This document shows positions 7,328 to 52,061 of a stretch of 64,000 nt of DNA, in pieces. This stretch comes from Escherichia phage RB69. A model generated the notes under the pieces. That model did no database searches. It was given only the letters and a program-made list of their open reading frames with translations, and was not told the DNA's origin. Where the stretch lies: the sequence record NC_004928.1, one strand, 5' to 3'. The stretch's first letter is position 1. Each line of letters starts with the position of its first letter. A program made the position numbers and the translations under genes.

Positions 7328-7819
7328 ATGTTTGTAGATGACGTAACTCGTGCCTTCGAATCTGGTGATTTCGCTCGCCCTAACCTGTTCGAAGTAGAAA
7401 TCTCTTATCTTGGGCAAAACTTTAGCTTCCAGTGTCGTGCTACTGCTCTTCCTGCTGCGATCGTTGAAAAGGTTCCTGTTTCTTATATGAACCGTAAAAT
7501 TAACGTGGCCGGTGACCGTACATTCGATGATTGGACTATTACAGTAATGAACGACGATGCTCATAGTATTCGTCAGAAATTCGTTGATTGGCAAGGTATT
7601 GCAGCAGGACAAGGTAATGAAATTACCGGTGGTAAACCTGCTGAATATAAAAAGTCTGCTATCGTTCGTCAATTTGCTCGTGATGCTAAAACTGTCACTA
7701 AAGAAGTTGAAATTGTTGGCTTGTGGCCTACTAACGTTGGCGAAGTATCTCTTGACTGGGACAGCAATAACGAGATTGAAACGTTCGAAGTAACTCTTGC
7801 TCTTGATTGGTGGGAATAA
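7328..7819 (+). CDS. 19: Tail tube protein gp19
   Basis: 163 aa, same length as T4 gp19; synteny after gene 18. Confidence 0.93.
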   Translation: MFVDDVTRAFESGDFARPNLFEVEISYLGQNFSFQCRATALPAAIVEKVPVSYMNRKINVAGDRTFDDWTITVMNDDAHSIRQKFVDWQGIAAGQGNEITGGKPAEYKKSAIVRQFARDAKTVTKEVEIVGLWPTNVGEVSLDWDSNNEIETFEVTLALDWWE

Positions 7820-13209: not shown

Positions 13210-13233
13210 TCTTAATTGATTAAATCTTATTTT

Positions 13234-13258
13234 GGGAGACTTCGGTCTCCCATTTTTG
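13234..13258 (+). terminator. Rho-independent terminator after gene 23 (GGGAGAC-UUCG-GUCUCCC plus U-run)
   Basis: Perfect 7-bp stem, ttcg loop, then atttttgg. Confidence 0.8.
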
Positions 13259-13290
13259 GTTTTATTTCTGCGCAATTTCGATGTAAGTTT

Positions 13291-13531
13291 TCAAAATATT
13301 TTGCCAATTAGGCATACCTTCTGAACATATGCCGGAGAACCGTCTTTATTTTTGAATGATGCAAGTTTATCAGTGGCCCAATAACCTTTAGTTCGAGCTT
13401 CAGAATCAACTTTCATCCATACTTTGTTGAAGGCATTACCATTAACTTTTGCACCATATTTTTGTACTTTCGGTTACAGATCCAGCTTCCAGAACTTTTA
13501 CAGTATCTCGTAAGAAACGTGCTTTAGTCAT
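13291..13531 (-). pseudogene. Small early gene between 23 and 24, apparently disrupted by a +1 frameshift (about 79 aa if repaired)
   Basis: SD GGAG plus ATG at 13531; frame 1 MTKARFLRDTVKVLEAGSVTESTKIWCKS-stop; the adjacent frame continues with T4-like codons (VQKYGAKVNGNAFNKVWMKVDSEARTKGYWATDKLASFKNKDGSPAYVQKVCLIGKIF) to a stop at 13291. Confidence 0.45.
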
Positions 13532-13559
13532 TTTGTTTACTCCTCTGCAGCTGATAAGT

Positions 13560-13591
13560 CGATAGTATCACATACCAAATACGTTGTAAAC
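13560..13591 (-). promoter_or_regulatory. Putative sigma70-type early promoter (GTTTAC -35, about 17-nt spacer, TACTAT-like -10) for the small minus-strand gene
   Basis: Read directly on the reverse complement. Confidence 0.4.
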
Positions 13592-13597
13592 AATCTT

Positions 13598-13605
13598 TAT
13601 AAATA
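13598..13605 (+). promoter_or_regulatory. Late promoter TATAAATA upstream of gene 24
   Basis: Exact TATAAATA about 28 nt upstream of the gene 24 ATG. Confidence 0.6.
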
Positions 13606-13632
13606 ATCTATATCACATAAGGGAAAAATGCA

Positions 13633-14916
13633 ATGAGTAAAATCCAAAAATTATCGCGTGAATCTACAACGTCTACCAGCAACTCAATTGGTCGCCCAAA
13701 TCTCGTTGCTTTGACTCGCGCTACGACTAAATTAATATATTCTGACATCGTAGCAACACAAAGAACTAATCAACCTGTTGCTGCTTTTTATGGTATCAAA
13801 TATCTTAACCCAGATAACGAATTCACATTTAAAACTGGTGCTACTTATGCTGGCGAAGCTGGATATGTAGACCGAGAAAAAATTACTGAGCTCACAGAAG
13901 AATCAAAAGCCACACTAAATAAAGGCGATTTTTTCAAATATAATAATATCGTCTATAAAGTGTTAGAAGATACACCATTTGCAGATATTCAAGAAAGTGA
14001 TCTAGAATTAGCTCTTCAGATTGCAGTCGTTCATTTAAAGGTACGGTTGTTTTCAGATGCAGCGGTAACAAGCAAATTTGAAAGCTCTGGTAGCGAAATT
14101 TCTGATGCAAGATTCCAGATTAATAAATGGCAAACTTCAGTCAAATCTCGTAAACTTAAAACCGGCCTCACGGTTGAATTAGCGCAAGATTTGGAAGCGA
14201 ATGGATTTGATGCCCCTAACTTCTTAGAAGATTTGCTTGCAACTGAAATGGCTGATGAAATTAATAAAGATATTCTTCAGTCTTTAATTACTGTATCGAA
14301 ACGTTATAAAGTTACTGGAATTACTGACACCGGATTTATTGACTTGAGCTATGCATCCGCTCCAGAAGCAGGTCGTTCGTTATATCGAATGGTGTGTGAA
14401 ATGGTATCACACATTCAAAAAGAGTCAACTTATACTGCGACGTTTTGTGTAGCTTCAGCTCGTGCAGCTGCTATTCTTGCTGCTTCCGGTTGGTTAAAAC
14501 ATAAACCAGAAGATGATAAGTATCTTTCACAAAATGCTTACGGGTTCTTAGCTAATGGTTTACCGCTTTATTGCGATACTAACAGTCCATTAGATTATGT
14601 GATCGTTGGCGTAGTAGAAAATATCGGTGAAAAAGAAATTGTTGGATCAATTTTCTATGCTCCGTATACAGAAGGTCTCGACTTAGATGACCCGGAACAT
14701 GTTGGTGCATTTAAAGTTGTAGTTGATCCAGAAAGCTTGCAACCGTCTATTGGTTTATTGGTTAGATACGCTTTATCAGCAAATCCTTACACAGTAGCAA
14801 AAGACGAAAAAGAAGCGAGAATAATTGATGGCGGGGACATGGATAAAATGGCAGGACGTTCAGACTTGTCTGTTTTACTCGGTGTTAAATTGCCTAAAAT
14901 TATTATAGATGAATAA
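13633..14916 (+). CDS. 24: Capsid vertex protein gp24
   Basis: 427 aa; near-identical to recalled T4 gp24. Confidence 0.95.
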   Translation: MSKIQKLSRESTTSTSNSIGRPNLVALTRATTKLIYSDIVATQRTNQPVAAFYGIKYLNPDNEFTFKTGATYAGEAGYVDREKITELTEESKATLNKGDFFKYNNIVYKVLEDTPFADIQESDLELALQIAVVHLKVRLFSDAAVTSKFESSGSEISDARFQINKWQTSVKSRKLKTGLTVELAQDLEANGFDAPNFLEDLLATEMADEINKDILQSLITVSKRYKVTGITDTGFIDLSYASAPEAGRSLYRMVCEMVSHIQKESTYTATFCVASARAAAILAASGWLKHKPEDDKYLSQNAYGFLANGLPLYCDTNSPLDYVIVGVVENIGEKEIVGSIFYAPYTEGLDLDDPEHVGAFKVVVDPESLQPSIGLLVRYALSANPYTVAKDEKEARIIDGGDMDKMAGRSDLSVLLGVKLPKIIIDE

Positions 14917-14949: not shown

Positions 14950-15948
14950 TTATGATACTAATTCAATCCATGCAGGACGCAGAACATCTTGCACCATTCG
15001 GACTAATTCTTTCTTAACAAGATTCGGATTATCAGATGTTGTTAATACAATACCTTCACGAGAAGTTTCTTCCAGAATATCTTGAACAGTCAATCCCATC
15101 ACTTTGCCAAAATCTTTTGGCGTTACAGTCCCAATCTTAGAAATAACATTATTAACACGATTTAATGTAACATAACAAGCTAGAACATCAAGCAAGTTTT
15201 TGTCAATTTCGGTTAATGGAACCTGAGTTTTAATAGGCTTATCAGACTTTTTCTTTTCACTGAATTTAGAGTTCTTGCACTTAATCGCTACACGAGTACC
15301 GTTTGGCAGCCATTTAGGGAAACAAGGCTTCAGAACATAACCTTCTGCAGTATTATCACCAATAACATTAGCATCAAATACACAATTATTTGCTTCTACA
15401 AGGTCTTCTGACGCAGTAGCATTATAAGCGGCTAAAACGGAATCAAGGTCATTTGGAATCATGATAAGAGAATCAAATGTTCCACGACCAAGCATTGGTG
15501 CCATTTTAAAACCGAATTCATTACAGAAATCTTGCATTTCGTAATCGGTCAAATACGTATTATCACCACTTTCTGTATTGATAAGGATATCGAACACATA
15601 AAAATCTTTTTCACCGTAGTCAACACCTTTCTGGATTCCACCACCAGCGAATTCACCGAATACTTGATATGATACGGCTCGAGCTGTGTACATGAATTTC
15701 TGAACGGTTTTAATAGCTTTATCATACTTCTTGAGTACGATTTCATAACCATAAAAATCTTCTGCTGGAAGAATAGGGCCTGTGCGCTTGGCGCATGTGA
15801 CGTTGTCACGTTCAATTATTAACGAGAAGTTGGTCCCATGGATTTTCTCACGTGCTACCCAAACACCAGTAGTCAAACCATTAGTGTAGAGTTTTTCAAT
15901 AAACTTAGAGTTGTAGTGGTTTTCAAGACTGCTGTATTTCTTAAACAT
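14950..15948 (-). CDS. rnlB: RNA ligase 2 (Rnl2)
   Basis: 332 aa; N-terminus [20 protein letters not shown] and active-site region EKIHGTNFS match recalled T4 Rnl2. Confidence 0.93.
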
Positions 15949-15958
15949 AAATCACCAT

Positions 15959-15966
15959 TATAAATA
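15959..15966 (+). promoter_or_regulatory. Plus-strand TATAAATA late-promoter motif facing minus-strand genes (would give antisense late RNA)
   Basis: Exact motif; orientation is opposite to the neighbouring genes. Confidence 0.3.
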
Positions 15967-16067
15967 ATAATATCAAAATAATTAGCAGAGACTCTATCTC
16001 CGACCCGATGTTTAATTTGAATGGATAGAACCTAGATTCATTATACCATCAAAAAATGTAAAGCATA

Positions 16068-16319
16068 TTAGAACTTGATTTCTATCCAATGACCATCACG
16101 TTGGTCGTGATTAATTTTGTACTGAAAGCCGTTATCACGAAGCCATTGACCGACTTGTTCAGTTATAGTTAAATCGTTCTTTGACGGGTAGTACGTGAAT
16201 TGTGTCTGACCTTTGTCAGCGGCTTTCTCTGCCATCGCAGAGAAGTTAGTAATAAAATCACTCAACAAATTAGCTTTAGTGGCCAGAGCCCTTTCTCTTA
16301 ATTCCTGTGCAAAACTCAT
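16068..16319 (-). CDS. Hypothetical protein (24.2-like position)
   Basis: 83 aa ORF, compact operon arrangement. Confidence 0.55.
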   Translation of the reverse strand: MSFAQELRERALATKANLLSDFITNFSAMAEKAADKGQTQFTYYPSKNDLTITEQVGQWLRDNGFQYKINHDQRDGHWIEIKF

Positions 16320-16516
16320 TTCTTCACCTTTTTGTTAATCAAACGTTTACGGTATACAACTTTTTCTTTTGCTTTAAACTTTGACCGAGCTGTCTCGGCT
16401 TTAGTCCATAGTAATCCAACTTCTTTAGGTTGTAAACCGATTTTTTGAGCAATTTCTACGAATGAAAATCCCGCCTCATGTAATGTATAAACTTCAACTT
16501 CAGCTCTCATAATCAA
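16316..16516 (-). CDS. Hypothetical small basic protein, possible helix-turn-helix (24.3-like position)
   Basis: 66 aa ORF; FSFVEIAQKIGLQPKEV resembles an HTH. Confidence 0.5.
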   Translation of the reverse strand: MIMRAEVEVYTLHEAGFSFVEIAQKIGLQPKEVGLLWTKAETARSKFKAKEKVVYRKRLINKKVKK

Positions 16517-16577
16517 TCCCGTATTATTTGGTTTGTGCCATTATATACATCAATCTCACGTTGTGTTTTGTATGCTT

Positions 16578-16606
16578 TAAAAACGAAGAAAGGGGCCGAA
16601 GCCCCT
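16578..16606 (-). terminator. Rho-independent terminator downstream of hoc (GGGGC-UUCG-GCCCC plus U-run on minus strand)
   Basis: Read on reverse complement. Confidence 0.7.
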
Positions 16607-16611
16607 TACGA

Positions 16612-18027
16612 TTATGGATATGTATAGATGATACCAGTTTCCAAAGCAGTTTTATGGATGATGTATCCATTACGTGATTCTTGAACATCAACTTCTGGAT
16701 AGTCTTTCATCATCTTCTGAAGAGTGTAACGATGCAGGTAGTATTTACTATCTGGATCTTCAGTTTTCCAATCTTTACCTTCTTCAGTCATTTTTTGGAT
16801 TTCATCCATAACCCACCAACCGCACCAGATGTAAGCTGAAGTACGATGTGGAAGAGGATGAACATAAGGTAGTTCACCTTCTGGCTCAATTGGAGTCTGT
16901 TCAGTAATAACAACTTCAGCGGTTGAACTAATTGTCTTTGAAGTATAGTTATCTTTAGTTAATACTGCTTCAACTTTAATTGTATGAGTACCAGCTGAGG
17001 AGGTATCAATACTGTAAGTATTAGTAGAATTACTTTCTGCTACATTGTCTTTCTTCCAAGAATACACAATATTAGTATCACCTGGAGCACCAGTAACAGA
17101 TGCTGTTAAAGTTGCAGTTCCGCCAACAGTAGTATTAACTGATGGCGGAGATAAAGAAATGGTGGCACTATTAAATGTAGCATTATTAGTTACTACTGTT
17201 GCTTCTGCTGAAATTTCTTTTGTAACATAATTTGTTGCAGAAACAGATACGGTGCATTTAAGAGTTTTACTTCCGACCTCGGTTGGAGTGAATTTATACG
17301 TAGCAGAAGTTGCATCCAGAATATTACTGTCATCCATTGACCATTGGAATGATGTAGTAGCACCTGAAGGTGCACCAGAGACATTTGCAGTTAAAGTAAT
17401 AGGAACACCAAAGACCGTAGTCGGAGACTCAGGCGTAATTTTTAGTGTTGAAGAATTAGCCTTTTTATTTACAGTCAAAGAAACCGCTGATGATTCTACT
17501 GTTTTATCAACGTAATCAGTTGCAGTCACTGTGACAGAACAAGTTATAGACTTAGTTCCTTCAGATGTTGGTGTATATTCAAAGGTTGATTGCTTTTGAC
17601 CATCAACAGCGACCCCGTCAACTTTCCATGTATAAGCAATAGCAGCACCACTAGGTTGATTGCTTACATTAGCAGTGAATGTTGTTGCTGTTCCAATTTC
17701 TACTGCCGCCGGAGAAGCCGGAGTAACAGCGACGGTAGAATTATTTTCTTTCTTATTAACAGTGATAGTTGTTGACGCTTCAGCTATTTCCGGATCTCCT
17801 GCGGAAAGTGTATTGGTTGCAACCACTTTAATTTTTTTTGTTCCTGCCGGAGAAGCAAGAGTATAATCCATTGTAGCAGCCGTAGACTCCTGTGCTATAT
17901 CATCTACAGTCCAGACGTATGTAATAGTACCATCTGGAGTTTCACCTGCAGGTGTAGCAGTGAATGTTTGTGAACCTCCAATAACCCCTGTAGGAGTTAA
18001 AGGAGATAACGTGACAGTGAATGCCAT
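16612..18027 (-). CDS. hoc: Highly immunogenic outer capsid protein Hoc, with four Ig-like repeats
   Basis: 471 aa; C-terminal capsid-binding domain (EPEGELPYVHPLPHR...GIIYTYP) matches recalled T4 Hoc; four tandem Ig-like repeat signatures precede it. Confidence 0.9.
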   Translation of the reverse strand: MAFTVTLSPLTPTGVIGGSQTFTATPAGETPDGTITYVWTVDDIAQESTAATMDYTLASPAGTKKIKVVATNTLSAGDPEIAEASTTITVNKKENNSTVAVTPASPAAVEIGTATTFTANVSNQPSGAAIAYTWKVDGVAVDGQKQSTFEYTPTSEGTKSITCSVTVTATDYVDKTVESSAVSLTVNKKANSSTLKITPESPTTVFGVPITLTANVSGAPSGATTSFQWSMDDSNILDATSATYKFTPTEVGSKTLKCTVSVSATNYVTKEISAEATVVTNNATFNSATISLSPPSVNTTVGGTATLTASVTGAPGDTNIVYSWKKDNVAESNSTNTYSIDTSSAGTHTIKVEAVLTKDNYTSKTISSTAEVVITEQTPIEPEGELPYVHPLPHRTSAYIWCGWWVMDEIQKMTEEGKDWKTEDPDSKYYLHRYTLQKMMKDYPEVDVQESRNGYIIHKTALETGIIYTYP

Positions 18028-18036
18028 AAGTTATCC

Positions 18037-18705
18037 TTATTTTAATGTTACGAAAGAAGAATTACGAGTTTCACGAATTAGAACTGATCCATCGCGATTA
18101 ATATAATAAATTAAGCTAAATAATGTTTGGTGAGCAGAAGCATGCACAAAACTCGTTGGGTGAGATTTCCAATCTGGGGTTTCGGCTATCCATTGATAAA
18201 TCCACCAAGGAACAGTAACATATCCTGGGCCTTTGCCTAATTTAATGAGTGTAGGACTAAAATTTTCAGGCAGAACAAAATTTACTTCTTTATTTACTTC
18301 TGGCTCAGGCTCTTTTTCAGATTCAACAACCTGAGTAATTGCTTCTTCGAATTTATCATGGTCGAATTCTTTTTCTTGTTCGACAACTTCTAATACTTCA
18401 ACTTGTTCTGTTGGAGAATCAAACAACAGAATAGCTTCTTCTTTAACTTCTTCGTTGGTGAAATTAACACCGTCCACATCATCTGCGGCAGTAATTAAAT
18501 CAGTAATAGATAATCCATCAGTTTCAGGTAATGGTTCATCAGCCAGTGCGTTAAGAGCTTCTTCGATATCAATAACAATATTATCGAACGATTTTGTTTT
18601 CTTAACACTAATGCCAAATTGTTCTGCATATTCAAACAGTTTAGCTTTAGCTTCCTTTTTATCAGAAAGAGCACGTAACTCTTCAATATAGTCTTTATCG
18701 ATCAT
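18037..18705 (-). CDS. inh: Inh-like protein (inhibitor of prohead protease)
   Basis: 222 aa acidic protein in the T4 inh position between hoc and uvsW. Confidence 0.7.
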   Translation of the reverse strand: MIDKDYIEELRALSDKKEAKAKLFEYAEQFGISVKKTKSFDNIVIDIEEALNALADEPLPETDGLSITDLITAADDVDGVNFTNEEVKEEAILLFDSPTEQVEVLEVVEQEKEFDHDKFEEAITQVVESEKEPEPEVNKEVNFVLPENFSPTLIKLGKGPGYVTVPWWIYQWIAETPDWKSHPTSFVHASAHQTLFSLIYYINRDGSVLIRETRNSSFVTLK

Positions 18706-18718
18706 GGTATTTCCTCAT

Positions 18719-18726
18719 TATAAATA
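18719..18726 (+). promoter_or_regulatory. Late promoter TATAAATA upstream of uvsW
   Basis: Exact motif about 30 nt upstream of the uvsW ATG. Confidence 0.55.
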
Positions 18727-18755
18727 TAACTATATTTATTACATGGTAATTTGAC

Positions 18756-20270
18756 ATGACTGACATTAAAGTACATTTTTATGATTTTAGTCACGTGCGC
18801 ATTGAATGCGACGAAAGTACGTTTTACGAACTTCGTGACTTTTTTAGCTTTGAAGCTGACGGGTATAAATTTAACCCAAAATATCGCTATGGGCAATGGG
18901 ATGGTAGAATTCGACTTTTAGATTACAATCGTTTGTTACCATATGGACTTGTAGGACAAATAAAAAAGTTCTGTAACAATATGAGTTATTCTGTATGGAT
19001 TGACCCTAAAATCTTTGAGACCGAAGACCTTACCAGGGAAGATTTTGACGCGTGGCTTTCTAAACAAGAAATTTATTCAGGCAACGCCAAAATCGAACCA
19101 CATTGGTATCAAAAAGATGCCGTATATGAAGGTCTGGTTAATCGTCGTCGAATTTTAAACCTTCCGACATCAGCAGGTAAATCACTAATCCAAGCACTTT
19201 TAGCTCGATATTATCTAGAGAACTATGAAGGTAAAATTCTCATTATCGTCCCTACAACAGCATTGACAACCCAAATGGCTAATGATTTTGTTGATTATCG
19301 CTTGTTTAGTCATTCGATGATTAAGAAAATTGGCGGTGGTGCTGATAAAGCGGACAAATCTAAAAACGACGCTCCAATTATTGTTGGCACATGGCAAACG
19401 GTAGTTAAGCAGCCTAAAGAATGGTTCTCTCAGTTCGGTATGATGATGAACGATGAATGCCACTTAGCAACAGGCAAAAGTATTTCTTCAATCATCTCAG
19501 GATTAAATAATTGCATGTTTAAATTCGGTTTATCTGGCTCATTAAGAGACGGAAAAGCCAATGTAATGCAGTACGTAGGTATGTTCGGCGAAATCTTCCG
19601 TCCTGTTAGCACGTCTAAATTAATGGAAGACGGACAGGTAACTGAGCTTAAGATTAATAGTATTTTCCTTCGTTATCCAGACGAATTCGCCACCAAATTA
19701 AAAGGTAAAACATACCAAGAAGAAGTTAAAATTATTACCGGACTAAAACGTCGTACAAAGTGGATTGCTCAACTTTCGGTAAAATTGGCTAAGAAAGACG
19801 AGAACGCCTTTGTAATGTTTAAACACGTTACACACGGTAAAGAAATATTTGAAGCTATTAAAGAGCTTGGATACGAAAAAGTTTATTACGTATCAGGTGA
19901 AGTTGATACTGAAACACGTAACGCTCTTAAAGTCATGGCAGAAAATGGTAAAGGCATTATTATTGTCGCATCATATGGAGTATTCTCTACCGGTATTTCA
20001 GTCAAGAATCTTCATCATGTTATTTTTGCTCATGGTGTTAAATCAAAAATTATCGTACTTCAAACCGTAGGTCGTGTGCTTCGTAAGCACGGTTCTAAAG
20101 CTGTTGCTACAGTTTGGGATCTCATCGATGACGCAGGTGTAAAACCTAAATCATTAAATACTAAAAAGAAGTATACTCATCTTAATTACTTGTTAAAACA
20201 CGGTATTGATCGTATCCAACGTTACGCTGATGAGAAATTTAACTATGTAATGAAAACAATTAATTTATAA
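18756..20270 (+). CDS. uvsW: UvsW helicase (SF2)
   Basis: 504 aa; helicase motifs and extensive identity to recalled T4 UvsW. Confidence 0.95.
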   Translation: MTDIKVHFYDFSHVRIECDESTFYELRDFFSFEADGYKFNPKYRYGQWDGRIRLLDYNRLLPYGLVGQIKKFCNNMSYSVWIDPKIFETEDLTREDFDAWLSKQEIYSGNAKIEPHWYQKDAVYEGLVNRRRILNLPTSAGKSLIQALLARYYLENYEGKILIIVPTTALTTQMANDFVDYRLFSHSMIKKIGGGADKADKSKNDAPIIVGTWQTVVKQPKEWFSQFGMMMNDECHLATGKSISSIISGLNNCMFKFGLSGSLRDGKANVMQYVGMFGEIFRPVSTSKLMEDGQVTELKINSIFLRYPDEFATKLKGKTYQEEVKIITGLKRRTKWIAQLSVKLAKKDENAFVMFKHVTHGKEIFEAIKELGYEKVYYVSGEVDTETRNALKVMAENGKGIIIVASYGVFSTGISVKNLHHVIFAHGVKSKIIVLQTVGRVLRKHGSKAVATVWDLIDDAGVKPKSLNTKKKYTHLNYLLKHGIDRIQRYADEKFNYVMKTINL

Positions 20271-21597: not shown

Positions 21598-21996
21598 TTA
21601 CACTCTATTGCTTGACGCTAACTGAAGTTTAATTTGTTCAATATCGTCAGGGTTGTCTACGACCGAAAATCTAATCTCTACTATAACCGTATAGTCGTCA
21701 TATACCGGCGTTACACTTACAGAAAGTTTGTCGATGCGTGGCTCATAGTTACGAACAGCTGCCTGGATATTACGCTCAATCGTATCGGCTGTAAGTGGTG
21801 TCATATTCTCGAAAAGTTCATCAACCAAATCGCATCCAAATTCAGGGTCGAAGGGGCGTGAGCCTTTTCTAGTTGTCACTATGCCAAGAAGACTATTTTT
21901 AATAGAACGAAGTCCTACAGAACGAGCAACGTCCTTGTTCCAATCCATACGCATTTCTGGGTCGATATCTGAATAAAGTTTATTGATATTAGACAT
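21598..21996 (-). CDS. 25: Baseplate wedge protein gp25
   Basis: 132 aa, same length and position as T4 gp25. Confidence 0.93.
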   Translation of the reverse strand: MSNINKLYSDIDPEMRMDWNKDVARSVGLRSIKNSLLGIVTTRKGSRPFDPEFGCDLVDELFENMTPLTADTIERNIQAAVRNYEPRIDKLSVSVTPVYDDYTVIVEIRFSVVDNPDDIEQIKLQLASSNRV

Positions 21997-22622
21997 TATA
22001 GTAACTCAAAGAATTCTTTGAGGCCTCGTATTGTGTGAACGTGTGACGCCCCACATTTGGGACATTTAATAGGGGTTGCCAGATAAATTGATGGCGACAC
22101 CAAAAGATTTTTAATATTGATCATGTCATCTTCTGTTATAAGGCCGTAAAGGTCGTTTATTTCTGCTTCAGTTAAATCTTCAACAGGGATGGACTCTCCA
22201 TTGACAAAAACAGCCTCAATACATGAAGCAATCATTAATGCGATATTTTTATCATCAAATAATTTAGGTTGACGGAACTTAATTTTAATACCGCTGAACG
22301 AATACCAGGGATCGGCCTGTTCATCTAATTGAGTGTGCAATAAATTCATATAGACTTGAAATGAATGCCCACAGGAACAATTCCAGGTGTGTTCTTGATT
22401 CACTTCACCTAATGAATGTGCCCACAGATTTACCAACAATAACTCGGCTTCTTGTTTAGTCAAGTTTTTAGCGTTAGAGCAATTAGTGATAATATTGTTC
22501 ACTGCTGATTCAATAGTACCGGTAGCCCGCGCACCTATGAGTCCTAAATATTCTTTTAAAGTAAAGGCTCTACAATTCACTTCTTTATCGCCTAAACGTA
22601 CGGTAAACGTATATTTGTACAT
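21996..22622 (-). CDS. 26: Baseplate hub protein gp26
   Basis: 208 aa; synteny and length as T4 gp26. Confidence 0.88.
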   Translation of the reverse strand: MYKYTFTVRLGDKEVNCRAFTLKEYLGLIGARATGTIESAVNNIITNCSNAKNLTKQEAELLLVNLWAHSLGEVNQEHTWNCSCGHSFQVYMNLLHTQLDEQADPWYSFSGIKIKFRQPKLFDDKNIALMIASCIEAVFVNGESIPVEDLTEAEINDLYGLITEDDMINIKNLLVSPSIYLATPIKCPKCGASHVHTIRGLKEFFELL

Positions 22623-22640: not shown

Positions 22641-22652
22641 TATTTATAAATA
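22641..22652. promoter_or_regulatory. Divergent overlapping late promoters (TATAAATA on both strands) for gene 26 (-) and gene 51 (+)
   Basis: Plus tatTTATAAATAat contains TATAAATA at 22645-22652 and its complement at 22641-22648. Confidence 0.6.
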
Positions 22653-22669: not shown

Positions 22670-23425
22670 ATGGCTAATATAATTCGTTGTAAATTACCGG
22701 ATGGTGTTCATCGTTTTAAGCCGTTCACTGTGGCGGATTATAGAGACTTTTTACTAGTTAGAAATGATATCGAACATCGTTCGCCGCAAGAACAAAAAGA
22801 AATAATTGCCGATCTGATTGATGATGATTATTTTGGCGAGTACCCTAAAACATGGCAACCATTTATATTCCTGCAAGTTTTTGCAGGCTCTATAGGCAAA
22901 ACAAAAGTTCCCGTTATTTTCACTTGCCCTAAATGCTCTAAAGAAAAAACTGCACCATTTGAGATATATCAAAAAGAACTAGTCGAACCTGAACTTGATG
23001 TTGCTGGTATAAAAATACGTTTTTCTTTCCCTGAAAAGTTTTATGACAATAAAGCATTAATGATAAGTGAAAACATAAAAGAAATATATTATAATGATGA
23101 ATGGTACCCATGGAATGATTTGACTGAAGAGAACCAAATCCAAGTAATAGAAGCAATAGACATTGACTCGCTCGAGAAGGTTATTGCTTCTATGAATCCT
23201 ATTAATTTGACCCTTAGATTAGGTTGTTGTGAACGTCATGTTAAAACATATACTGATATCTTAGAGGTTTTTAAATTGTTAGTTAACCCTGATGAGATTT
23301 TTACATTTTATCAGATAAACCATTCACTAGTAAAGAGTCAATACACATTGGATTCTATTATGCAAATGATTCCTGTTGAACGTGGTATTGCTTTAACATT
23401 AGTAGAAAAGGACCATAAAAAATGA
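22670..23425 (+). CDS. 51: Baseplate hub assembly catalyst gp51
   Basis: 251 aa; position and size as T4 gp51. Confidence 0.88.
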
Positions 23426-36605: not shown

Positions 36606-36854
36606 TTACTTCAGGGTAATAACAAAATGACGTACTGCTTTACGAGCCGCAGAAGCCAGAGGCTTAGCAAATTTCAGTTCATCTTTAGCTTCCAGTTCAG
36701 CAGCCAGAGTAGCCTGAGCAGGATTCAGATGTTTGAAATAACGCAGGATTTCCAGTGCTTCGGCTTCAACATCAATAGATGCGCCGTAATTGTCATGGCC
36801 GTTATTCCATGCATGGCGTTGCAGTTCAAGAGCGTGTTGTAATTGTTTAATCAT
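36606..36854 (-). CDS. rIII: rIII lysis-inhibition accessory protein
   Basis: 82 aa, same length and position as T4 rIII. Confidence 0.85.
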   Translation of the reverse strand: MIKQLQHALELQRHAWNNGHDNYGASIDVEAEALEILRYFKHLNPAQATLAAELEAKDELKFAKPLASAARKAVRHFVITLK

Positions 36855-51072: not shown

Positions 51073-51726
51073 TTAATACTTACATGATTTTATTGTTTCT
51101 ATGAACAATTTCTTAGCAGCATTTACATCGATTTGAAGTATTTTTCGATATGCCTTTAATTTGGTAGAATAATTTTGCCAGACTAAATTGTCAGTAAGTT
51201 CGTCATGCTTATCTATAATATTCAAGAATGAATCCAACAACAAGAAGGTTTCAAACGAAATTATATTGCTTTGTAGCAATTTAAATATGTAGCTCGACTG
51301 AACTTTATTATTATAATCAAATATCTCTTGAAGCGCACTAACTTCCACTTTCTTACTGAAATAGTAGATGTTACGTACATCTTCAGCAAACGTCTCCTTG
51401 GCTTGTTTGAGACGTCCAATATATTCCCTATAGAAAACTAATGCATCAGCGTCTGATATCTCACCAATCCATGCATCTTGGTTAGCAACTAAGTTACTGA
51501 TGAATATCAAAGTGAGTTCCTTTAACTTATATTTCTCTGCTAGTTTCTCAAAGAAATATTTATCTCGGCGTTTTTGATATGCATTATCCGAAACACGCAT
51601 GCACCAGTTATATTTGATTACGTCATACCGACCATTAAAATGTTGTTTGCACATCAAGTATAGTTTGTATACCGATTTTCCATTAATATAACGTTCTCCG
51701 TCGGGAGGCATGCGTATTTTAATCAT
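51073..51726 (-). CDS. 59: Helicase loader gp59
   Basis: 217 aa, same length and position as T4 gp59. Confidence 0.9.
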   Translation of the reverse strand: MIKIRMPPDGERYINGKSVYKLYLMCKQHFNGRYDVIKYNWCMRVSDNAYQKRRDKYFFEKLAEKYKLKELTLIFISNLVANQDAWIGEISDADALVFYREYIGRLKQAKETFAEDVRNIYYFSKKVEVSALQEIFDYNNKVQSSYIFKLLQSNIISFETFLLLDSFLNIIDKHDELTDNLVWQNYSTKLKAYRKILQIDVNAAKKLFIETIKSCKY

Positions 51727-52061
51727 AATAAGAAATCTAACGTATTAGTTTTTTCACCACGAGCAACTGATGGGCGAAGCATGTTTTCGTCAATTGCTTC
51801 GCTTGTAATTTTTTCAACAATTCCTGTAGGAATAAATTTAGCAAATTGTGTTTCTGGAATAGAATTTTCTTCCAAGAAAGCAGTTGTTGCTTCTAAATAA
51901 GACATACCAAATTGTTCAACCATGGATTCGATAATGAATCCGTTTTCTTGACGGTCAAGCAATTTAGCGATATCATCTTTATCATGTTTTACTGCTAATT
52001 CTTGTTCAGATAAACCGGTCTCATCAACCGGTTTAATATCACTTAGTGAAAACTGTGTCAT
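51723..52061 (-). CDS. 33: Late transcription co-activator gp33
   Basis: 112 aa, same length as T4 gp33; synteny. Confidence 0.9.
   Translation of the reverse strand: MTQFSLSDIKPVDETGLSEQELAVKHDKDDIAKLLDRQENGFIIESMVEQFGMSYLEATTAFLEENSIPETQFAKFIPTGIVEKITSEAIDENMLRPSVARGEKTNTLDFLL

What the first reader, a model, noticed from the sequence alone, without database searches (positions are those of the whole stretch)
15959..15966. Late-promoter motif oriented antisense to the early 24.2/24.3-like genes
An exact TATAAATA on the plus strand sits just upstream of rnlB, but all genes to its right until uvsW are on the minus strand. Late transcription from here would be antisense to the 24.x-like genes and hoc, possibly a late switch-off. 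Chance occurrence of an AT-rich octamer is also plausible.
Basis: seen in the sequence. Interest (0 to 1): 0.2.

Follow-up and report, generated by a model that had tools for sequence, protein, structure and literature searches.

The report
Conserved antisense late promoter before rnlB
The T4-type late-promoter box sitting backwards in front of the RNA ligase 2 gene is real and is kept in many related phages, so it probably fires late against the gene's own middle promoter as a timing off-switch; this is a modest refinement of known T4 biology and has no RNA evidence yet.

Summary
An exact TATAAATA lies at 15959-15966 (+), 10 nt from the rnlB start codon, in the 119-bp spacer between rnlB and the 24.2-like gene, both on the minus strand. 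The window is a Mosigvirus (RB69-like) genome. It is the only intergenic TATAAATA of 19 in the window with no co-directional gene within about 140 nt.

Chance alone gives about 6% for this spacer, but comparison rejects chance. The same spacer holds a MotA-box middle promoter for rnlB. In 17 representative homologous leaders from related phages (Mosig-, Gelderland-, Dhaka-, Karam-, Gaprivervirus, PEi20, fHe-Yen9-01 and others):
- 12 carry the exact reverse-oriented box.
- 3 carry the common A(-13) late-promoter variant.
- The rest of the leader has diverged almost to randomness.
- In one clade the box has moved to another place in the leader.
- It is never found in the sense orientation.

Best reading (about 0.5): a maintained gp55-type late promoter starting near 15972. 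It faces the rnlB middle promoter (predicted start near 16033) and shuts that unit off late by convergent-promoter interference and/or antisense RNA. The main rival is a sense-strand leader RNA element. hoc is an unlikely target. There is no transcript evidence, and T4 itself lacks the spacer. It is a new member of a known kind and of modest interest.

The parts
15959..15966 (+). TATAAATA, the T4-type (gp55) late-promoter box, taken as positions -13 to -6
   Evidence: Exact match. It is the most widely shared 8-mer of the homologous leaders, in 10 of 13. The exact box is in 12 of 17 leader types and the A(-13) variant in 3 more.
15967..15974 (+). AT-only melting segment (ATAATATC) and predicted late transcript start at about 15972
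   Evidence: Sequence, with 6 of 6 A/T after the box. The start position is inferred from the rule in PMC2988020 that the box lies about one helical turn upstream of the start.
16059..16068 (-). MotA box (aaTATGCTTTA; core TGCTTTA at 16065-16059) of the rnlB middle promoter, overlapping the 24.2 stop codon
   Evidence: Sequence. It fits the consensus (a/t)3TGCTTtA placed 12 +/- 1 bp from the -10 (PMC2988021). The spacing here is 13. It is conserved in relatives.
16040..16045 (-). TATAAT -10 element of the rnlB middle promoter; predicted start at about 16033
   Evidence: Sequence. TATAATGG is shared by 10 of 13 leaders. The start position is inferred as 7 nt after the hexamer.
15972..16033 (.). 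Predicted overlap of about 62 bp between the two face-to-face transcripts (late on +, middle on -)
   Evidence: Inferred from the two predicted starts. In the nine leader types with the box at the SD-proximal end of the leader, it lies 63-73 nt after the -10.
15986..16002 (-). Leader hairpin CGGAGAT-AGA-GTCTCTG in the rnlB 5' UTR, followed by a U-rich tract
   Evidence: Terminator-like hit. Other Mosigviruses have CAGAGAC-AGA-GTCTCTG. The window's version keeps its pairing only through G:U pairs on the sense strand, so it is a sense-RNA structure.
15946..15956 (-). rnlB Shine-Dalgarno GGTGA (15956-15952) and ATG (15948-15946); the reverse box ends 2 nt before the SD
14950..15948 (-). rnlB (RNA ligase 2), the gene served by the middle promoter
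16068..16510 (-). 24.2-like (16068-16319) and 24.3/DUF2774 (16316-16510) genes, which a + strand late transcript would cross antisense
   Evidence: Annotations of relatives.
16590..16607 (-). hoc terminator hairpin AAGGGGCTTCGGCCCCTT with a T-run on the minus strand; there is no T-run after it on the + strand
   Evidence: The same position is annotated as a terminator in phage MM02.

Best explanation
The octamer is a real, evolutionarily maintained T4-type late promoter (gp55 sigma, gp33 coactivator, gp45 clamp), set in reverse orientation inside the 5' leader of the rnlB middle transcript. Early and middle in infection, MotA/AsiA-modified sigma-70 RNA polymerase starts at about 16033 on the minus strand and makes rnlB mRNA with an 85-nt leader. 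Once late transcription begins, gp55-polymerase opens the box at 15959-15966 and starts at about 15972 on the plus strand, about 61 bp from the middle start and facing it. It then runs across the middle -10 and MotA box into antisense 24.2/24.3. The expected result is late shut-off of the rnlB unit (or the 24.2-rnlB unit). This would work by interference between convergent promoters: dislodging polymerase at the middle promoter, occluding it, or colliding with it. An antisense RNA covering leader positions +1 to +62 may add to the effect. Shown: the motif, its setting, its conservation and its relocation in one clade. Inferred: that it fires in vivo, the start sites, and the shut-off. The end of the antisense RNA is unknown, and Rho-dependent termination of an untranslated RNA is the likely fate.
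For: (1) The match to the consensus is perfect and the 6 bases downstream are all A/T, as at the window's placed late promoters.
(2) The late system is present: gp33, and about 14 boxes lying 7-136 nt upstream of co-directional genes, most of them virion structural genes.
(3) An unbiased k-mer census of 13 representative leaders ranks TATTTATA (rnlB sense) as the most shared 8-mer, in 10 of 13. It ties with the middle -10 and beats the MotA box. Shuffles expect 0.66 of 13, with a maximum of 5 in 5000. The sense-oriented TATAAATA occurs in 0 of 13.
(4) With further relatives, 12 of 17 leader types have the exact box, 3 have AATAAATA and 1 has CATAAATA. A(-13) is the commonest natural variant of T4 late promoters, at 9 of 50 sites (PMC2988020).
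(5) Conservation stops at the edges of the box. The 63-73 nt between the -10 and the box have a median pairwise identity of 0.57, against 0.50 for shuffled pairs, while ATAAATA is invariant in all nine of those lineages.
(6) The distance to the middle -10 is held at 63-73 nt, whereas the distance to the ATG ranges from 9 to 45 nt, so the box is not tied to the ribosome site.
(7) In the clade with PEi20, L025, L026, L029, L034, L185 and L200, the SD-proximal copy is gone and an exact copy lies 11-13 nt after the -10. This is on the other side of the shared landmark GGTAAGAAGAT, which indicates motif turnover.
(8) In 37 loci of about 3.7 kb each, every exact reverse box is either the uvsW promoter or this leader site.
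(9) The box travels with the promoter-leader cassette whether that cassette precedes rnlB or 24.2, and whatever gene lies upstream.
(10) Late transcripts of either polarity are documented in T4 (PMC2988020), as are 22 antisense transcript starts (bioRxiv 10.1101/2024.04.04.588121). Convergent promoters in phage 186 give 5.6-fold interference (PMC6593788).
Against: - There is no RNA evidence for this site in any phage. T4, the only relative with start-site maps, has a 9-bp 24.2-rnlB junction and no equivalent site.
- In the relocated class, the bases downstream of the box are GC-rich (0-2 of 6 A/T), which is unfavourable for opening a late promoter. There the box also sits in the loop between GC-rich inverted repeats, which looks like an RNA hairpin.
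- The lineages are related by descent, so the shuffle statistics overstate their independence. Only about one relocation and one loss can be counted as separate events.
- One group (L014, L016, L180) lacks the box.
- No terminator is evident on the + strand, so a long antisense RNA could run into the late genes hoc and inh, which seems counterproductive.
- No reason is known why RNA ligase 2 would need to be switched off late.
Confidence: 0.5

Rival explanations
1. The conserved element works on the sense strand. UAUUUAUA would be an RNA signal in the rnlB/24.2 leader, for example a loop or AU-rich site bound by a translational repressor, ribosomal protein S1 or a nuclease, or possibly a DNA operator for a local regulator. 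On this view its identity with the reverse complement of the late box is incidental, and any + strand late transcription is a by-product.
For: - In seven sequences the 8-mer lies in the loop of a hairpin that starts at the 5' end of the middle transcript. The stems differ in sequence and use G:U pairs that work only in the sense RNA.
- In most other leader types it lies 2-4 nt before the SD GGTGA (TATTTAT[AT]-NN-GGTGA).
- The nearby leader hairpin is also a sense-RNA structure.
- The GC-rich flanks in the relocated class are poor for a late promoter.
Against: - There is no common RNA context. The 8-mer is in a hairpin loop in one class, next to the SD in another, and 19-45 nt from the ATG in Gaprivervirus, L030 and L037.
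- The window leader folds no better than shuffles (z = 0.08).
- RNAalifold support for the loop hairpin is weak (-0.44 kcal/mol).
- Rfam has no match.
- None of the roughly 45 early or middle genes on the minus strand of this window has the motif before its start, so it is not a general translation-initiation feature.
- The conserved span and the only tolerated variant position both match the gp55 late-promoter consensus.
Confidence: 0.25
2. The late promoter is active, but its selected role is to make a long antisense RNA that silences the upstream early genes 24.2 and 24.3 (and hoc) at the RNA level, rather than to act on the rnlB promoter.
For: In this window the first 540 nt downstream of the predicted start are antisense to 24.2 and 24.3, with no strong + strand terminator. 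Antisense transcript starts occur in T4.
Against: - The gene upstream of the cassette differs between lineages. It is 24.2 in many, other ORFs in the Dhakavirus-like and fHe-Yen9-01-like groups, and a 117-aa ORF where the cassette precedes 24.2. Yet the box is kept.
- hoc and inh are late genes with their own late box at 18733-18740, so silencing them late makes no sense.
- In the relocated class, the promoter sits directly against the middle promoter core.
Confidence: 0.15
3. This is a chance AT-rich octamer with no selected function. It may or may not give a weak spurious late transcript.
For: The spacer is 73% A+T, and shuffles produce the octamer in this orientation 6% of the time. About 3 chance matches per strand are expected in 64 kb. 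Within Mosigvirus the whole spacer is nearly invariant, so conservation there says nothing.
Against: - Exact or A(-13) boxes occur in 15 of 17 diverged leader types, against 0.66 of 13 expected.
- There are none in the opposite orientation.
- The flanks are near random.
- The box has relocated in one clade.
- There are no other stray reverse boxes in about 130 kb of flanking sequence.
Confidence: 0.1

Closest known systems
T4 late promoters (gp55/gp33/gp45-dependent, TATAAATA box), including those that give transcripts of the polarity opposite to early and middle genes
   Same: The 8-bp box is identical, the segment up to the start is AT-rich, and no -35 element is needed. The phage encodes gp33 and uses the same box in front of its structural genes. 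In T4, late transcripts of either polarity and transcription of both strands at several sites are documented (PMC2988020). Antisense transcription of gene 32 is known (Belin et al. 1987, listed), as are 22 antisense transcript starts.
   Different: No co-directional gene is served. The site does not exist in T4, where 24.2 and rnlB are 9 bp apart. Its conservation across genera as a partner of one particular middle promoter was not found described in the papers searched.
Transcriptional interference between face-to-face promoters, such as pR/pL of coliphage 186
   Same: Two promoters converge with starts a few tens of bp apart: about 61 bp predicted here, and the 186 pair is about 62 bp apart by my recollection. 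The interfering promoter is the one switched on by the developmental decision. In 186 this gives 5.6-fold inhibition, mainly by the 'sitting duck' mechanism (PMC6593788).
   Different: Here the two promoters use different sigma factors and are separated in time (middle against late), rather than being set by a repressor. No interference has been measured. The strengths of the two promoters are unknown.
T4 MotA-dependent middle promoters upstream of and inside 24.2, which serve rnlB
   Same: The partner promoter in the window has a MotA box (TGCTTTA) 13 bp from TATAAT, which fits the T4 consensus (PMC2988021). T4 is reported to have middle promoters upstream of and internal to 24.2 (PMC2988022).
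   Different: In the window the promoter lies in a dedicated 119-bp spacer with an 85-nt structured leader that carries the reverse late box. T4 has neither the spacer nor the box.
Late promoters embedded in RNA hairpins that control translation (T4 gene e, I-TevI, segB)
   Same: A late box lies within or beside a leader hairpin of a gene that is also transcribed from upstream promoters (PMC3014915; PMC2988022).
   Different: In those cases the late promoter points towards the gene and frees its ribosome site. Here it points away from the gene.

Membership tests
T4-type late promoter (gp55/gp33/gp45) | 8-bp box TATAAATA (a single deviation is tolerated, most often A at -13) | tested here: met
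   Exact match at 15959-15966. Consensus and variants as given in PMC2988020.
T4-type late promoter (gp55/gp33/gp45) | A/T preponderance between the box and the start, with no -35 requirement | tested here: met
   ATAATA, 6 of 6 A/T. The window's placed late promoters have 4-6 of 6.
T4-type late promoter (gp55/gp33/gp45) | The phage encodes the late transcription machinery and uses the box in front of late genes | tested here: met
   gp33 coactivator (Pfam Trans_coact, E = 3e-26) at 51723-52061. About 14 boxes lie 7-136 nt upstream of co-directional genes, most of them structural. Gene 55 itself was not looked for and is not evident in this window.
T4-type late promoter (gp55/gp33/gp45) | A primary 5' end about 6 nt downstream of the box, appearing late and dependent on genes 55 and 33 and on replication | not testable with these tools
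   No transcriptome of a phage carrying this spacer was found. T4 lacks the site.
T4-type late promoter (gp55/gp33/gp45) | Serves a downstream co-directional late gene (usual, but not defining) | tested here: not met
   The next + strand gene is uvsW, 2.8 kb away, with its own box. There is no + strand ORF of at least 40 aa with an ATG start in between.
Convergent-promoter transcriptional interference | Two promoters face to face with overlapping transcription units | tested here: met
   This rests on predicted starts only. The MotA box and TATAAT on the minus strand (16065-16040) give a start at about 16033. The late box on the + strand gives a start at about 15972.
Convergent-promoter transcriptional interference | Activity of one promoter measurably lowers output of the other in cis | not testable with these tools
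   This needs reporter or phage-mutant experiments.
MotA-dependent middle promoter (the partner element) | (a/t)3TGCTTtA box placed 12 +/- 1 bp upstream of a good sigma-70 -10 | tested here: met
   TATGCTTTA, then 13 bp, then TATAAT. Rule from PMC2988021. Conserved in relatives.
Structured cis-regulatory leader RNA (a known Rfam family) | Match to a curated covariance model | tested here: not met
   Only a chance-level snoRNA hit (E = 0.97) in 15850-16700.

The most novel reading that the evidence does not exclude
A dedicated temporal off-switch, made of a gp55 late promoter placed head-on inside the leader of a MotA middle promoter, has been maintained across much of the Tevenvirinae for the rnlB (24.2-rnlB) unit. 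It has been re-created at a new position in one clade. It went unnoticed because T4 itself lacks it. This would be the first conserved case in T4-like phages of sigma-switch-driven interference between convergent promoters.
Probability: 0.4. Interest if true: 0.45.

Novelty: new member of a known kind. Interest (0 to 1): 0.3.

Why it matters
How T4-like phages switch off middle genes is usually explained by sigma competition and mRNA decay. A conserved late promoter aimed at one middle promoter would be a cis-acting, gene-specific shut-off device, and it could be tested with a single point mutation. It would also suggest that RNA ligase 2, whose role in infection is unknown, must not be made late, or that transcription converging on the capsid genes 24 and 23 must be stopped. 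If the rival is right, the 8-mer marks a new leader RNA signal. In either case annotators should not assume that every TATAAATA serves the next gene downstream.

Tried and rejected
- The Miller et al. 2003 T4 genome review (PMC150520) is not held.
- T4 start-site data cannot be transferred, because T4 has a 9-bp 24.2-rnlB junction and no box there. The held supplement of the T4 dRNA-seq preprint has no start-site table.
- A scan of IMG/VR for the 15-mer TATTTATAATGGTGA returned at least 120 unrelated contigs. These are chance matches and were uninformative.
- Rfam found nothing.
- Single-sequence folding of the window's leader (z = 0.08) and of the predicted antisense RNA (z = -0.81) was no better than shuffles.
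- RNAalifold on the seven loop-class hairpins gave only a weak consensus of 4 pairs at -0.44 kcal/mol, because the stems are out of register.
- The search for a + strand terminator found only weak hairpins at 16089-16111 inside the 3' end of 24.2. The sequence varies within the genus and has no counterpart in the L006 group. The hoc terminator has no T-run in the + direction.
- The search for a + strand gene served by the box found no ATG ORF of at least 40 aa before uvsW. The first AUG after the start opens a 6-codon frame with no Shine-Dalgarno sequence.
- Conservation within Mosigvirus is uninformative, because the spacer is nearly invariant.
- The idea of the box as a relic promoter of a lost + strand gene was rejected, because it is kept in more than ten diverged lineages with no such gene.
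- A general AU-rich translation-initiation feature was rejected, because no other minus-strand gene in the window has it.

Full report
**What is there**

The window is a Mosigvirus (RB69-like T-even) genome. The region 15400-16700 is 98.8% identical to Escherichia phage PTE-Eco05 and 95-99% identical to 130 records.

The octamer TATAAATA is at 15959-15966 on the + strand.
- gp24 is at 13633-14916 (+).
- rnlB is at 14950-15948 (-) and matches Pfam RNA_ligase and T4_Rnl2_C.
- A 24.2-like ORF is at 16068-16319 (-).
- 24.3/DUF2774 is at 16316-16510 (-).
- A Hoc-like Ig/PKD protein is at 16612-18027 (-).
- An inh-like ORF is at 18037-18705 (-).
- uvsW is at 18756-20270 (+).

The box lies in the 119-bp spacer between rnlB and the 24.2-like gene, 10 nt from the rnlB ATG, on the strand opposite to both.

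**Is it more than chance within the window?**

The window has 19 exact boxes against 6.7 expected. Four of them lie well inside genes. The rest are intergenic or at gene edges. After two of my crude gene calls were corrected (gp19 at 7328-7819 and an ORF at 36606-36854), all of these except 15959 lie 7-136 nt upstream of a co-directional gene.

The site at 15959 is the only orphan. For this spacer alone, dinucleotide shuffles give the octamer in this orientation 6% of the time.

The six bases after the box are all A/T, like the working late promoters of the window. The late coactivator gp33 is encoded at 51723-52061.

**The other strand of the spacer**

Read in the rnlB direction, the spacer contains, in order:
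- a MotA box (TATGCTTTA, core at 16065-16059);
- 13 bp of spacing;
- TATAAT at 16045-16040;
- a leader with the hairpin CGGAGAT-AGA-GTCTCTG at 16002-15986;
- a U-rich tract;
- TATTTATA, the reverse of the box;
- the SD GGTGA and the ATG.

The first two elements fit the T4 middle-promoter rule of (a/t)3TGCTTtA placed 12 +/- 1 bp from the -10 (PMC2988021). T4 is reported to have middle promoters upstream of and inside 24.2 (PMC2988022).

The predicted middle start is at about 16033 and the predicted late start at about 15972. The two promoters would then face each other with starts about 61 bp apart. These positions are inferred, not mapped.

**Comparison with relatives**

T4 itself has only 9 bp between 24.2 and rnlB and no box there.

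I collected rnlB loci from three sources: 35 from IMG/VR, 33 from metagenomes and named genomes. Wherever a spacer precedes rnlB, it carries the same cassette: a MotA box, TATAATGG and a leader. In CC31-like, L012-like and Jiaodavirus-like phages, the same cassette precedes 24.2 instead, and 24.2 and rnlB abut.

An unbiased census of 13 representative leaders gave these results:
- TATTTATA is the most widely shared 8-mer, in 10 of 13.
- It ties with the -10 (TATAATGG) and ranks above the MotA box.
- Shuffles expect 0.66 of 13, with a maximum of 5 in 5000.
- The sense-oriented TATAAATA occurs in 0 of 13.

Over 17 leader types, 12 have the exact box. These are the window's Mosigvirus, Salmonella S16 (Gelderlandvirus), the CIP9-like and CC31 Karamviruses, Gaprivervirus, Edwardsiella PEi20, L029, L025, L026, L034, Yersinia fHe-Yen9-01 and L037. 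L185 and L200 add two more. Three types have AATAAATA (Dhakavirus-like, L012-like, L028-like), one has CATAAATA and one has none. A(-13) is the commonest natural variant of T4 late promoters, at 9 of 50 listed sites (PMC2988020).

Conservation stops at the edges of the box:
- The flanks differ in every lineage.
- In the nine lineages with the box at the SD-proximal end of the leader, the 63-73 nt between the -10 and the box have a median pairwise identity of 0.57. Shuffled pairs give 0.50, while ATAAATA is invariant.
- The distance from the -10 is held at 63-73 nt, while the distance to the ATG ranges from 9 to 45 nt.

In the clade with PEi20, L029, L025, L026, L034, L185 and L200, the box is instead 11-13 nt after the TATAAT. 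This is on the other side of the landmark GGTAAGAAGAT, which PEi20 shares with the CIP9-like leader. The exact octamer has therefore been re-established at a second position.

Across 37 loci of about 3.7 kb each, every exact reverse box is either the uvsW promoter, paired 14 nt from the inh box, or this leader site. Pure chance is thus rejected, and something recognises exactly these eight bases.

**What recognises it?**

The only known reader of this octamer in T4-like phages is gp55-RNA polymerase. The pattern of tolerated variation matches the late-promoter consensus. The upstream neighbour genes differ between lineages, so the constant partner is the middle promoter and leader, not 24.2, 24.3 or hoc.

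I therefore favour a maintained late promoter that fires head-on into the rnlB (or 24.2-rnlB) middle promoter. In the common arrangement the two starts are about 60 bp apart. In the PEi20-type arrangement, the late complex would sit directly on the middle promoter core. Such convergent arrangements cause interference in other phages. One example is 186 pR/pL, with 5.6-fold inhibition mainly by the 'sitting duck' mechanism (PMC6593788).

Late transcripts of either polarity are documented for T4 (PMC2988020), and so are antisense transcript starts (22 of 150; bioRxiv 10.1101/2024.04.04.588121). The kind of element is therefore known.

**Weaknesses and the main rival**

- No RNA data exist for any phage carrying this site.
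- In the relocated class, the bases downstream of the box are GC-rich (0-2 of 6 A/T).
- In that class the octamer also lies in the loop of a hairpin that begins at the 5' end of the middle transcript. The stems differ between lineages and use G:U pairs that work only in the sense RNA. The RNAalifold consensus is nevertheless weak.
- The window's own leader hairpin is also kept through G:U pairs in the sense strand.

A sense-strand RNA signal (UAUUUAUA) is therefore a serious rival. Several points count against it:
- There is no common RNA context across the classes.
- No other early or middle gene of the window has the motif.
- Rfam has nothing.
- The window leader folds no better than shuffles.

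That hairpin is not obviously a terminator in the + direction. Where the antisense RNA ends is unknown.

**Verdict**

My probabilities are about 0.5 for the convergent late-promoter switch, 0.25 for a sense-strand element, 0.15 for a long antisense RNA against the upstream genes, and 0.1 for chance. It is a new member of a known kind, and the interest is modest.

Noticed in passing
window 22641-22652: TATTTATAAATA contains two overlapping late boxes back to back, one per strand. They sit 18 and 17 nt from the divergent genes 21996-22622 (-) and 22670-23425 (+).
   Followed up: no
window 18719-18740: A divergent late-promoter pair lies between inh and uvsW: TATAAATA (+) at 18719-18726 and the A(-13) variant AATAAATA (-) at 18733-18740. 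The same pair, with motif starts 14 nt apart, recurs in most relatives, including T4.
   Followed up: partly
window 15986-16002 (-); L045-L047, L002: The rnlB leader hairpin is CGGAGAT-AGA-GTCTCTG in the window and CAGAGAC-AGA-GTCTCTG in other Mosigviruses. Pairing in the window's version survives only through G:U pairs on the sense strand. The hairpin is followed by a U-rich tract and scores as terminator-like, so it may be an attenuator or a stabiliser.
   Followed up: partly
L008, L010, L011, L020 (CC31), L012, L032, L035, L028, L177, L181 at about -270 to -400 relative to rnlB: The whole cassette of promoter, leader and reverse box sits upstream of 24.2 rather than rnlB in these lineages. 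The cassette has therefore moved, or the 24.2-rnlB spacer has been gained or lost.
   Followed up: partly
L006, L014, L027, L007, L029, L025, L026, L034 leaders: These leaders have tandem -10 elements: TATATT 13 nt after the MotA box, then TATAAT 22-23 nt after it. Two alternative starts or a duplicated -10 are possible.
   Followed up: no
L007, L029, L025, L026, L034, L185, L200, 11-13 nt after TATAAT: GC-rich inverted repeats of differing sequence flank the octamer, forming a predicted 5'-terminal hairpin with UAUUUAUA in the loop. A motif resembling GGTA(A)GAAGA follows in most leaders.
   Followed up: partly
window 16612-18027: The Hoc-like protein is 471 aa here, against 376 aa in T4 and MM02. 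Extra Ig/PKD domain content is likely.
   Followed up: no
window 13210-13632: The 423-bp gap between gp23 and gp24 holds only a 41-aa minus-strand ORF. Phage MM02 annotates an 89-aa CDS at this place, and T4 has segD. This may be a decayed gene. A strong hairpin follows gp23.
   Followed up: no
window 27229-53310: There is no + strand TATAAATA or AATAAATA in the 26-kb stretch that includes the minus-strand early and middle gene block (about 1.3 exact boxes expected). Reverse late boxes are therefore not a general feature of early-gene leaders here.
   Followed up: partly
L038 (Salmonella S16) 1887-2450; L039 (Klebsiella KP27): S16 has a DprA-like gene between rnlB and gene 24. In KP27, rnlB follows srd directly and is followed by a homing endonuclease, and the leader cassette is absent.
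   Followed up: no
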